NCBI RefSeq assembly: GCF_053078305.1
Contig: NZ_CP166879.1
Length of the DNA: 64,000 nucleotides
Direction: 5' to 3' (one strand)
Positions 4,572 through 7,124 of the stretch are shown one piece after another (within the stretch, counting starts at the first letter, position 1; every line of letters begins with the position of its first letter). The position numbers and the translations under genes are program-made. Under the pieces are notes generated by a model. The model made no database searches and was not told the origin of the DNA. It worked only from the letters and a program-made list of their open reading frames with translations.

Positions 4572-7124
4572 ACCGGTAGGCGATCTGGTCGTTGATTTAA
4601 GTCTGGATGCGGCCAGATTTGACGAGCAGATGGCCAGAGTCAGGCGTCATTTTTCCGGTACGGAAAGTGATGCGAAAAAAACAGCGGCAGTCGTTGAACA
4701 GTCGATGAACCGGCAGGCGCTGGCTGCACAGAAAGCGGGGATTTCCGTCGGGCAGTATAAAGCCGCCATGCGTATGCTGCCTGCACAGTTCACCGACGTG
4801 GCCACGCAGCTTGCAGGCGGGCAAAGTCCGTGGCTGATCCTGCTGCAACAGGGGGGGCAGGTGAAGGACTCCTTCGGCGGGATGATCCCCATGTTCAGGG
4901 GGCTTGCAGGTGCGATCACCCTGCCGATGGTCGGGGCCACCTCGCTGGCGGTGGCGACCGGTGCGCTGGCGTATGCCTGGTATCAGGGCAACTCAACCCT
5001 GTCCGATTTCAACAAAACGCTGGTCCTTGCCGGCAATCAGTCGGGTCTGACGGCAGATCGTATGCTGGTCCTGTCCAGAGCCGGGCAGGCGGCAGGGCTG
5101 ACGTTTAACCAGACCAGCGAGTCACTCAGCGCACTGGTTAAGGCGGGGGTAAGCGGTGAGGCTCAGATTGCGTCCATCAGCCAGAGTGTGACGCGTTTCT
5201 CTTCTGCATCCGCGTGGAGGTGGACAAGGTCGCTGAAGCCTTCGGGAAGCTGACCACTGACCCGACGTCGGGGCTGACGGCGATGGCGCGCCAGTTCCAT
5301 AACGTGACGGCGGAGCAGATTGCGTATGTTGCTCAGTTGCAGCGTTCCGGCGATGAAGCCGGGGCATTGCAGGCGGCGAACGAGGCCGCAACGAAAGGGT
5401 TTGATGACCAGACCCGACGCCTGAAAGAGAACATGGGCACGCTGGAAACCTGGGCAGACAGGACAGCACGGGCATTCAAATCCATGTGGGATGCGGTGCT
5501 GGATATTGGTCGTCCTGATACCGCTCAGGAGATGCTGATTAAGGCAGAGGCTGCGTTTAAGAAAGCGGACGACATCTGGAATCTGCGCAAGGATGATTAT
5601 TTTGTTAACGATGAAGCGCGGGCGCGTTACTGGGATGATCGTGAAAAGGCCCGTCTTGCGCTTGAAGCCGCCCGAAAGAAGGCTGAACAGCAGAGTCAAC
5701 AGGACAAAAATGCGCAGCAGCAGAGCGATACCGAAGCATCACGGCTGAAATATACCGAAGAGGCGCAGAAGGCTTACGAACGGCTGCAGACACCGCTGGA
5801 GAAATATACCGCCCGTCAGGAAGAACTGAACAAGGCACTGAAAGACGGGAAAATCCTGCAGGCAGATTACAACACGCTGATGGCGGCGGCGAAAAAGGAT
5901 TATGAAGCGACGCTGAAAAAGCCGAAACAGTCCGGCGTGAAGGTGTCTGCGGGCGATCGTCAGGAAGACAGTGCTCATGCTGCCCTGCTGACGCTTCAGG
6001 CAGAACTCCGGACGCTGGAGAAGCATGCCGGAGCGAATGAGAAAATCAGCCAGCAGCGCCGGGATTTGTGGAAGGCGGAAAATCAGTTCGCGGTACTGGA
6101 GGAGGCGGCACAACGTCGCCAGCTATCCGCACAGGAGAAATCCCTGCTGGCGCATAAAGATGAGACGCTGGAGTACAAACGCCAGCTGGCTGTACTTGGC
6201 GATAAGGTCACGTATCAGGAGCACCTGAACGCGCTGGCGCAGCAGGCGGATAAGTTCGCACAGCAACAACGGGCAAAACGGGCAGCCATTGAGGCGAAAA
6301 ACCGGGGGCTTACTGACCGGCAGGCAGCGCGGGACGCCACGGAACAGCGTCTGAAGGAGCAGTATGGCGATAATCCGCTGGCGCTAAATAACGTCATGTC
6401 AGAGCAGAAAAAGACCTGGGCAGCTGAAGACCTGCTTCGCGGGAGCTGGGTGGCTGGCCTCAAGTCCGGCTGGAGCGAGTGGAAAGAGAGTGCCACGGAC
6501 AGTATGTCGCAGGTTAAAAGTGCTGCCACGCAGACCTTTGATGGTATTGCGCAGAATATGGCGGCGATGCTGACCGGCAGTGAGCAGAACTGGCGCAGCT
6601 TCACCCGTTCCGTGCTGTCCATGATGACAGAAATTCTGCTTAAGCAGGCAATGGTGGGGATTGTCGGGAGTATCGGCAGCGCCATTGGCGGGGCTGTTGG
6701 TGGCGGCGCATCCGCGTCAGGCGGTACAGCCATTCAGGCCGCTGTGGCGAAATTCCATTTTGCGACCGGGGGATTTACGGGAACCGGCGGCAAATATGAG
6801 CCAGCGGGGATTGTTCACCGTGGTGAATTTGTCTTCACGAAGGAGGCAACCAGCCGGATTGGTGTCGGCAACCTGTACCGCCTGATGCGGGGCTATGCGG
6901 AAGGTGGTTATGTGGGCGGTGCCGGAAGTCCGGCGCAGATGCGGCGGGCTGAAGGCATTAATTTTAATCAGAACAATCACGTGGTGATTCAGAACGACGG
7001 TACGAATGGTCTGCCAGGTCCACAGATGATGAAGGCGGTGTATGACATGGCCCGCAAGGGTGCCCGTGATGAAATCCAGGCACAGATGCGCGATGGTGGT
7101 CTGTTCTCCGGAGGTGGACGATGA
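4564..7124 (+). pseudogene. H: Tape measure protein gpH, interrupted by an apparent 1-bp deletion frameshift near 5211-5216
   Basis: Two overlapping ORFs (4564..5253 and 5214..7124) together cover lambda gpH; lambda reads ...SSASGVEVDKV..., the window reads ...SSASAWRWTRS...* in one frame and (V)EVDKVAEAFGKL in the next; DNA has GCATCCGCGTGGAGG where lambda (as recalled) has GCATCCGGCGTGGAGG. Confidence 0.75.

What the first reader, a model, noticed from the sequence alone, without database searches (positions are those of the whole stretch)
5190..5260. Apparent 1-bp deletion frameshift splitting the tape measure gene H
The lambda gpH reading frame is broken: the upstream ORF ends ...SQSVTRFSSASAWRWTRSLKPSGS* while a new frame continues (V)EVDKVAEAFGKL..., which is the lambda sequence. 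The DNA reads GCATCCGCGTGGAGGTGG where lambda, as I recall, has GCATCCGGCGTGGAGGTGG (one G missing). If real, full-length tape measure protein cannot be made and the prophage cannot assemble normal tails, i.e. it is cryptic or defective despite otherwise intact-looking tail genes, unless there is ribosomal +1 frameshifting at this site. It could equally be a sequencing or assembly error in a GC-rich run.
Basis: seen in the sequence. Interest (0 to 1): 0.45.

Follow-up and report, generated by a model that had tools for sequence, protein, structure and literature searches.

The report
One-base deletion breaks prophage tape-measure gene
The tail-length (tape measure) gene of a lambda-like prophage in E. 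coli strain 48 lacks one G and is out of frame; this is an ordinary lesion found only in this one draft assembly, either a very recent inactivating mutation or a long-read consensus error, and not a recoding signal.

Summary
At window 5212 a single G stands where lambda and every relative checked have GG (codon Gly217 of gene H). H is split into a 229-codon ORF (4564-5253: 216 native residues, 13 out-of-frame, then TGA) and a 636-codon remainder (5214-7124).

The window is 100% identical to E. coli strain 48 (a roe-deer STEC), GCA_000736735.1, contig JPQG01000003.1. NCBI calls no protein there between T and M.

The deletion was found in no other sequence. It has 0 hits in 5,426 complete E. coli genomes, GTDB representatives, IMG/VR and JGI metagenomes. 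The nearest relative is identical over 20,167 bp except for this base.

All 58 other genes compared in the window are intact. The 94-nt rescue window contains no slippery heptamer or homopolymer run.

Real mutation and consensus error cannot be separated in silico, and I put them at roughly 50/50. The assembly does show indel-only errors at contig ends.

Just upstream of the window, the prophage's portal gene is interrupted by a helper-embedded PICI satellite, which is a published kind of element.

Verdict: ordinary, low interest.

The parts
4564..7124 (+). Gene H (tail tape measure) of a lambda-like prophage, 2561 nt instead of 2562; a frameshifted pseudogene as written.
   Evidence: It is 95.0% identical to lambda H over 100% of its length and 97.4% to PhiR63_1 H. 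It is 99.9% identical to the intact H of E. coli 2022H047. It lies between T and M as in lambda. NCBI's gene calls on the source contig leave this interval without a protein (L007).
5212..5212 (+). Deletion site: a single G where all relatives have GG (codon 217, GGC Gly, becomes GCG).
   Evidence: Shown by the alignment and the gap lists. A 40-mer or 31-mer spanning the deletion has 0 hits in four collections. The intact 32-mer is found in 56 viral contigs.
4564..5253 (+). 5' fragment ORF: 216 native gpH residues, 13 out-of-frame residues (AWRWTRSLKPSGS), then TGA at 5251-5253.
   Evidence: The break lies inside Pfam TMP_2, which spans residues 54-256 of the repaired protein.
5214..7124 (+). 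3' fragment: native gpH residues 218-853 in the -1 frame relative to the 5' fragment. It contains Tape_meas_lam_C (residues 627-701) and the C-terminal tip-anchoring helix.
   Evidence: The C-terminal helix (residues 818-842) sits in the tail tip with gpI (PMC10721106).
5160..5253 (+). Overlap window in which a -1 shift would restore a full-length product. It contains no slippery heptamer and no homopolymer of 5 or more.
3733..4571 (+). Tail assembly chaperone genes G and T with the conserved G GGA AAG slippery heptamer at 4131-4137. This is the genuine programmed -1 frameshift of this gene cluster and serves as an internal comparison.
   Evidence: The G and T products are 100% identical to the 2022H047 proteins.
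7121..17254 (+). Downstream tail genes M, L, K, I, J, lom, stf and tfa, all uninterrupted.
   Evidence: tblastn gives single full-length HSPs with no stops, at 94.8-100% identity.
1..4155 (+). Upstream late genes: the end of D, then E, FI, FII, Z, U, V and G, all uninterrupted.
   Evidence: The window starts at L014:5842, which is JPQG01000003.1 position about 757091.

Best explanation
This is a non-programmed loss of one G in codon 217 of the lambda-type tape-measure gene H. It is found only in the E. coli strain 48 assembly, and I take it as a real, very recent inactivating mutation.

Shown: translation from the normal H start reads 216 native residues, leaves the frame inside the TMP_2 domain and stops 13 codons later at TGA 5251-5253.

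Inferred from established lambda biology:
- The truncated product lacks the ruler body, the Tape_meas_lam_C domain and the C-terminal helix that docks with gpI in the tail tip.
- No tail initiator or tube of defined length can therefore form.
- This prophage cannot supply tails, either for itself or for the PICI satellite embedded in its portal gene.
- The remaining 636 codons have no well-placed ribosome-binding site and are probably silent or made at trace level by reinitiation.
For: - Deletion and frame change.
- The gene is orthologous to lambda H over its full length.
- Domain positions.
- gpH role and C-terminal anchoring: PMC10721106.
- The site lies in the interior of a 1.42-Mb contig.
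- All 58 other genes compared in the 64-kb window are intact.
- About 12.6 kb of island sequence that the assembly holds in two copies shows no indel disagreement in contig interiors. Interior consensus quality therefore looks good.
- The context is only a GG dinucleotide, not the long homopolymer typical of consensus errors.
- No recoding signal, and no relative shares the split.
Against: - The nearest relative (GCA_017766485.1) is identical over window 1021-21187 except for this base. The only difference in 20 kb is thus an indel rather than a substitution, which is unusual for real divergence.
- The same assembly shows clusters of 1-3-base indels at contig ends, including a G/GG discrepancy.
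- Its contig sizes, and the same laboratory's later use of PacBio, suggest a long-read-only consensus.
- No independent reads or second assembly of strain 48 could be reached.
Confidence: 0.5

Rival explanations
1. Consensus (assembly) error: the strain really has GG, H is intact, and the missing G is a residual single-base deletion in a long-read-only draft assembly from 2014.
For: - The deletion is a singleton absent from every other collection searched.
- It is the only difference from the closest relative in 20,167 bp.
- The assembly has demonstrable indel-only discrepancies between two copies of the same island: 6 in the last ~300 bp of contig 4 and 13 in the first 2.2 kb of contig 15, including G versus GG.
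- A 1.42-Mb contig in a 2014 draft, and the same group's stated use of PacBio SMRT for sister strains, fit a long-read assembly.
- Other public split-H records are also 1-bp G-run length changes.
Against: - The errors seen are confined to contig ends. Contig interiors agree perfectly for indels, and all 58 other genes compared in the window are intact.
- GG is not a typical homopolymer error context.
- The sequencing platform of strain 48 itself was not verified; the original paper is not held.
Confidence: 0.45
2. The deletion is real but is compensated during expression, either by -1 ribosomal frameshifting or by transcriptional slippage, so that some full-length gpH is still made.
For: Only the general precedent applies. 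The neighbouring G/T genes use a programmed -1 shift at G GGA AAG (window 4131-4137). Indels rescued by frameshifting are reviewed in PMC5009743 (listed, not read in detail).
Against: - There is no X XXY YYZ or near-cognate heptamer and no run of 5 or more identical bases in the 94-nt rescue window 5160-5253.
- The arrangement is not conserved in any relative.
Confidence: 0.02
3. The deletion is real and the two fragments (1-229 and an internally initiated C-terminal piece) work together, or the C-terminal piece works alone, as a split or shortened tape measure that gives shorter tails.
For: From memory, not checked here: in-frame internal deletions of lambda H give proportionally shorter tails (Katsura and Hendrix). 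The 3' ORF retains Tape_meas_lam_C and the tip-anchoring helix.
Against: - GTG 5214 and GTG 5220 have no properly spaced Shine-Dalgarno sequence. The GGAGG at 5216-5220 overlaps or follows them, and the next ATG is at 5283.
- The break is inside the TMP_2 domain.
- No other genome among more than 8,000 H copies has this split, so there is no sign that it is maintained.
Confidence: 0.02

Closest known systems
Bacteriophage lambda gpH, the tail length tape measure protein (853 aa; J02459 10542-13103)
   Same: Full-length orthologue: 95% nucleotide identity over 100% of the gene. It sits in the same position between G/T and M and has the same Pfam domains (TMP_2, Tape_meas_lam_C) once the G is restored.
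   Different: One G of codon 217 is missing, so the reading frame ends after 229 codons.
Other frameshifted H genes in public records: E. coli 2014C-3307 (NZ_CP027368, annotated 'frameshifted') and phage PhiR49_1 (PV340568, H annotated as two CDS)
   Same: Each is a lambda-type H gene that is 2561 nt long and split by a single-base G deletion. About 1 of the 40 best full-length E. coli matches is of this kind.
   Different: They break at other positions and at longer G runs: G5 to G4 at H nt ~2206, and G7 to G6 at H nt ~287. Neither has the deletion at codon 217.
Lambda G/GT programmed -1 ribosomal frameshift
   Same: Same gene cluster and same direction of shift that would be needed. Its slippery heptamer GGGAAAG is present and conserved at window 4131-4137.
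   Different: The H break has no slippery sequence, is not conserved, and interrupts a protein that is a single polypeptide in all relatives.
Laboratory lambda (PaPa) stf frameshift
   Same: A one-base frameshift in a tail gene of a lambdoid phage that arose recently and is private to one lineage. The disruption of stf in laboratory lambda is noted in PMC10721106.
   Different: stf is dispensable for plaque formation, whereas H is essential for tail assembly. Here stf is intact (1008 aa).
Helper-embedded PICI (HE-PICI) composites (Tommasini, Mageeney and Williams 2023, PMC10111431)
   Same: The prophage carrying this H gene has an int-alpA-...-primase-...-capsid island inserted in its portal gene B, co-oriented with the late genes and flanked by an imperfect ~13-bp repeat. 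[quoted passage not shown]
   Different: This concerns the surroundings, not the H lesion itself. Whether the site equals the published B:Phage_portal_2:241 site was not checked against their data.

Membership tests
Lambda gpH-type tape measure protein gene | Sequence homology to lambda H over the whole gene | tested here: met
   95.0% nucleotide identity over 100% coverage to J02459 H. tblastn gives 100% and 99.7% identity to an annotated intact orthologue in two frames.
Lambda gpH-type tape measure protein gene | Pfam TMP_2 and Tape_meas_lam_C domains | tested here: met
Lambda gpH-type tape measure protein gene | Position between the G/T chaperone genes and M | tested here: met
   G 3733-4155, T 4137-4571, H 4564-7124, M 7121-7450.
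Lambda gpH-type tape measure protein gene | One uninterrupted reading frame of about 853 codons (functional gene) | tested here: not met
   The frame changes at 5212 and a stop follows at 5251-5253.
Programmed -1 ribosomal frameshift site | Slippery heptamer X XXY YYZ in the zero frame within the overlap of the two frames | tested here: not met
   None, canonical or partial, in 5160-5253.
Programmed -1 ribosomal frameshift site | Two-frame arrangement conserved among relatives | tested here: not met
   All relatives have one frame. The deleted k-mer has 0 hits in E. coli complete genomes, GTDB representatives, IMG/VR and JGI metagenomes.
Programmed -1 ribosomal frameshift site | Downstream stimulatory RNA structure | not tested
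   Not pursued because no slippery site exists.
Transcriptional slippage site | Long homopolymeric A/T run at the frame junction | tested here: not met
   No run of 5 or more in 5160-5253. The nearest is GGGGG at 5145, upstream of the -1-frame stop at 5157.
Frameshifted pseudogene | Indel relative to intact orthologues that causes a premature stop | tested here: met
Frameshifted pseudogene | Lesion present in the organism's DNA (independent reads or assemblies) | not testable with these tools
   Only GCA_000736735.1 carries it. The exact truncated ORF products are absent from the 15-billion-protein collection, and no second assembly of strain 48 was reachable.
Long-read consensus indel error | The assembly shows indel-type consensus errors | tested here: met
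   Two copies of the same island differ almost only by 1-3-base indels near contig ends.
Long-read consensus indel error | Error-prone context at the site (homopolymer, contig end, low coverage) | tested here: inconclusive
   The site is only a GG dinucleotide in the interior of a 1.42-Mb contig. Coverage cannot be known.
Helper-embedded PICI (surroundings, outside the window) | Integrase + AlpA + primase-type island inserted in, and co-oriented with, a prophage late gene, with attL/attR identity block | tested here: met
   Portal B is split into a 293-aa 5' part and a 3' part by an 11,826-bp island encoding integrase, AlpA, AAA_25, SSB, PerC, capsid E-like, HDPD and Nu1-like genes. The uninterrupted B of L016 overlaps both junctions by 13 bp. 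The definition is from PMC10111431.

The most novel reading that the evidence does not exclude
The deletion is real and the prophage still makes functional tails. This would happen either through low-level -1 decoding at a non-canonical site in 5160-5253 or because an N-terminally truncated or two-piece gpH can still nucleate and measure a (shorter) tail. The helper prophage and its embedded PICI would then remain transmissible.
Probability: 0.02. Interest if true: 0.5.

Novelty: already known. Interest (0 to 1): 0.07.

Why it matters
It matters little. If real, the deletion makes this lambdoid prophage, and the satellite embedded in its portal gene, unable to use this prophage's own tail genes. 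That is one more example of routine prophage decay in a STEC strain. If it is an artefact, it is one residual error in a 2014 draft assembly. The practical lesson is for annotation. A single frameshift in an otherwise pristine prophage that differs from its nearest relative by that base alone should not be used to call a prophage defective without read-level confirmation.

Tried and rejected
**Searches for a second occurrence of the deletion, all negative**
- A 40-mer megablast against 5,426 complete E. coli genomes.
- A 31-mer scan of GTDB representative genomes, IMG/VR and JGI metagenomes. The positive control with the intact 32-mer found 56 contigs.
- An exact look-up of the 229-aa, 636-aa and 613-aa products.

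**Attempts to reach an independent assembly of strain 48, which failed**
- I used exact look-ups of the window's E protein, the repaired H protein and the J protein, and a megablast of the E region.
- Only GCA_000736735.1 carries this E allele.
- No contig longer than 1 Mb carries the repaired H.

**Literature**
- The paper that first described strain 48 (PMID 25488108) and Xu, Hendrix and Duda 2014 (PMC3907469) are not held.
- As a result, the sequencing platform of strain 48 and the published H-domain requirements could not be checked.
- A broad text search for 'JPQG/JD73' gave mostly noise.

**Ideas rejected**
- I first suspected the host was a non-coli Escherichia, because window 17-40 kb is only ~92-94% identical to E. 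coli. Window 40-64 kb is 98.6% identical, and the divergence sits in the yfc fimbrial operon and yfdF.
- I first labelled the upstream island a capsid-forming PICI. It lacks the portal, protease, large terminase and HNH genes listed for cf-PICIs, and it fits the HE-PICI description instead.
- yfdF looked disrupted in tblastn but is an intact, divergent 343-aa ORF.

Full report
**The observation**

The window at 5206-5223 reads GCATCCGCGTGGAGGTGG. An alignment with lambda J02459 and two lambda-like phages shows GCATCCGGCGTGGAGGTGG in all three. One G of the GGC codon for Gly217 of gene H is therefore missing; the surviving G is window 5212.

- ORF 4564..5253 encodes 229 residues ending ...FSSASAWRWTRSLKPSGS*.
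- ORF 5214..7124 encodes 636 residues beginning VEVDKVAEAFGKL.
- The whole H interval is 2561 nt against 2562 nt in lambda.
- tblastn with an intact annotated orthologue matches residues 1-216 in one frame at 100% identity and residues 218-853 in another frame at 99.7%.

**What the gene is**

The interval is 95.0% identical to lambda H over its full length and up to 97.4% identical to H of other lambda-like phages. It is 99.9% identical to an intact 'phage tail tape measure protein' gene in E. coli 2022H047.

It lies between G/T and M, as in lambda. With the G restored, the protein has Pfam TMP_2 at residues 54-256 and Tape_meas_lam_C at 627-701. The break at codon 217 therefore falls inside TMP_2.

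**Source of the window**

An exact look-up of the window's J protein led to NCBI GCA_000736735.1, contig JPQG01000003.1 (1,424,899 bp). This contig is 100.000% identical to the window over the 22,925 bases compared and carries the deleted site. In NCBI's gene calls for that contig no protein is called between T and M, which is consistent with a pseudogene annotation.

JPQG00000000 is E. coli strain 48, a subAB2-3-positive STEC from a roe deer (University of Zurich). The same group sequenced five sister strains with PacBio SMRT. The platform used for strain 48 itself could not be verified. The 1.4-Mb contig in a 2014 draft, and the error pattern described below, point to a long-read assembly; this is an inference.

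**How widespread the deletion is**

I found it nowhere else.
- A 40-mer centred on the deletion has no megablast hit in 5,426 complete E. coli genomes. Those genomes contain 8,306 H-like places.
- A 31-mer spanning the deletion has no exact hit in 100,044 GTDB representative genomes, in IMG/VR or in JGI metagenomes.
- The intact 32-mer occurs in 56 IMG/VR contigs.
- The truncated ORF products are absent from a 15-billion-protein collection.
- Five other contigs that encode the identical J protein all have the intact site.
- The closest of these, GCA_017766485.1 (L010), is identical to the window from 1021 to 21187 except for this one base.

**State of the rest of the region**

Of 59 reference proteins compared across the 64-kb window, only H changes frame. 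These comprise 17 late phage genes, 4 island genes and 38 chromosomal genes. The one apparent exception, yfdF, is an intact but divergent 343-aa ORF.

The genuine programmed -1 frameshift site of the cluster, GGGAAAG at the G/T junction, is present at 4131-4137.

**Recoding**

The downstream H frame is open from 5160 and the upstream frame closes at 5253. This 94-nt window has no canonical or partial X XXY YYZ heptamer and no homopolymer of five or more. Since no relative has the split either, I reject programmed frameshifting and transcriptional slippage (about 2%).

Independent translation of the 3' fragment is unlikely. The GGAGG at 5216-5220 overlaps the candidate GTG codons at 5214 and 5220 instead of preceding them, and the next ATG is at 5283.

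**Real mutation or consensus error**

Evidence for an error:
- The deletion is a singleton.
- It is the only difference from the nearest relative in 20 kb, and it is an indel rather than a substitution.
- The assembly demonstrably contains indel errors. An 11.8-kb island is present twice in the assembly, and the two copies differ in their interiors by only 2 substitutions and no indel over about 12.6 kb. They differ by 6 indel columns in the last ~300 bp of contig 4 and by 13 in the first 2.2 kb of contig 15, including a G/GG case.
- Other public split-H records are also single-G losses, at G5 and G7 runs.

Evidence for a real mutation:
- The errors seen are confined to contig ends.
- The H site lies deep inside a 1.42-Mb contig.
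- All other genes in 64 kb are intact.
- GG is not a typical homopolymer error context.

I cannot separate the two with these tools. I put them at roughly 50% real and 45% error.

**Consequence if real**

This part rests on established lambda biology. gpH forms the oligomer around which gpV polymerises and sets the tube length. Its C-terminal helix (residues 818-842) sits in the tail tip on a gpI tripod (PMC10721106).

A 229-residue product lacks all of this, so no tail initiator and no tails are expected from this gene set.

**Surroundings outside the window**

Homology to uninterrupted relatives starts abruptly inside portal gene B, about 2.3 kb upstream of the window start.

Further fetching showed the following order in the source contig:
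- Q, holin, lysozyme, Rz, Bor, Nu1, A and W;
- a 293-aa 5' portion of B;
- an 11,826-bp island encoding integrase, AlpA, Bro-N, Ash, DUF4222, an AAA_25 primase-type protein, SSB, PerC, a lambda-E-like capsid protein, a decoration protein, a 137-aa protein, a Nu1-like small terminase and a 93-aa protein;
- the 3' portion of B, followed by C, D, E and the genes in the window.

The uninterrupted B gene of a relative overlaps both junctions by 13 bp (AAGGCGATGTATG, imperfect in attL and attR). A second copy of the island sits at the same point of the portal gene of a second lambdoid prophage in the same assembly (contig 4 end plus contig 15).

This is the published helper-embedded PICI configuration. 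That work describes three integration sites in B:Phage_portal_2 and reports genomes with several such composites (PMC10111431). It is therefore a known kind of element.

The prophage is not simply 'otherwise intact'. However, the portal interruption is expected to be reversible by satellite excision, whereas an H frameshift would not be. A real H lesion would deprive both the helper and the satellite of this prophage's tails, although the second lambdoid prophage might supply them; this last point is inference.

**Verdict**

The finding is an accurate reading of an ordinary lesion. It is a 1-bp deletion found only in this assembly, in a prophage structural gene, and apparently already treated as a pseudogene in the public annotation. 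There is no evidence of recoding, and whether it is biological or a consensus error is unresolved. Interest is low and the novelty category is 'already known'.

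Noticed in passing
Outside the window: source contig JPQG01000003.1 ~742947-754772 (loci L076 9806-21242, L074, L014 1-3523); the window starts at ~757091: An 11,826-bp helper-embedded PICI is inserted in portal gene B of the same lambda-like prophage, co-oriented with the late genes and flanked by an imperfect 13-bp repeat (AAGGCGATGTATG in the uninterrupted gene). It encodes integrase, AlpA, Bro-N, Ash, an AAA_25 primase-type protein, SSB, PerC, an E-like capsid protein, a decoration protein and a Nu1-like TerS. 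It matches the published HE-PICI class (PMC10111431).
   Followed up: partly
L077 (JPQG01000004.1 end) and L075 (JPQG01000015.1): A second, nearly identical copy of the island (2 SNPs in the interiors) sits at the same position of the portal gene of a second, different lambdoid prophage in the same strain. A contig break falls inside the repeat.
   Followed up: partly
L077:17411-17644 and L075:944-2227: The two island copies differ by clusters of 1-3-base indels only near contig ends, including a G versus GG case. This is direct evidence of long-read-type consensus errors in this draft assembly. In contig 15 the AAA_25 gene is not called, presumably for this reason.
   Followed up: yes
L075:12597-16142: Mu-like genes follow directly after FII of the second lambdoid prophage: an HTH_Tnp_Mu_1 repressor-like gene, the Mu transposase A and MuB. 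This suggests a Mu-like insertion in that prophage's tail region, or a chimeric small contig.
   Followed up: no
window 4131-4137: The lambda G/GT programmed -1 frameshift heptamer GGGAAAG is conserved at the G/T overlap.
   Followed up: yes
window 13656-16682: The side tail fibre gene stf is a single intact 1008-codon ORF, 100% identical to the 2022H047 protein. In laboratory lambda stf is itself split by a frameshift.
   Followed up: partly
window 408-1020: [quoted passage not shown] This looks like a recombination patch, and E stays intact.
   Followed up: partly
window 17324-22925: Beyond tfa lie a methyltransferase (-), a tfa fragment (18124-18276), an alpha/beta hydrolase (-), ompT (-), integrase intS (-) and tRNA-Arg(CCU) at 22851-22925 (-). 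The lambda-like module therefore abuts an argW-associated island or remnant. The same layout is present in E. coli W24 and in relatives L006 and L008.
   Followed up: partly
window 33735-40137 and 25375-26406: The yfcV-yfcO fimbrial operon (72-90% amino-acid identity) and yfdF (~65%) are far more divergent from the best E. coli matches than the flanking genes (98-100%). This explains the ~92% nucleotide identity of window 17-40 kb.
   Followed up: partly
L002:787 (PV340568, phage PhiR49_1) and L005:~5205 (NZ_CP027368): Two other public records have H split by loss of one G at G7 and G5 runs. PhiR49_1 is deposited as an isolated phage, so its split H is either a sequencing error or a tolerated variant.
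   Followed up: partly
L026 (IMGVR_UViG_2698536418_000006) 3039 and 4655: One 5.6-kb IMG/VR contig holds the intact 32-mer of H twice, 1616 bp apart. This could be an internal duplication in a tape measure gene or an assembly artefact.
   Followed up: no
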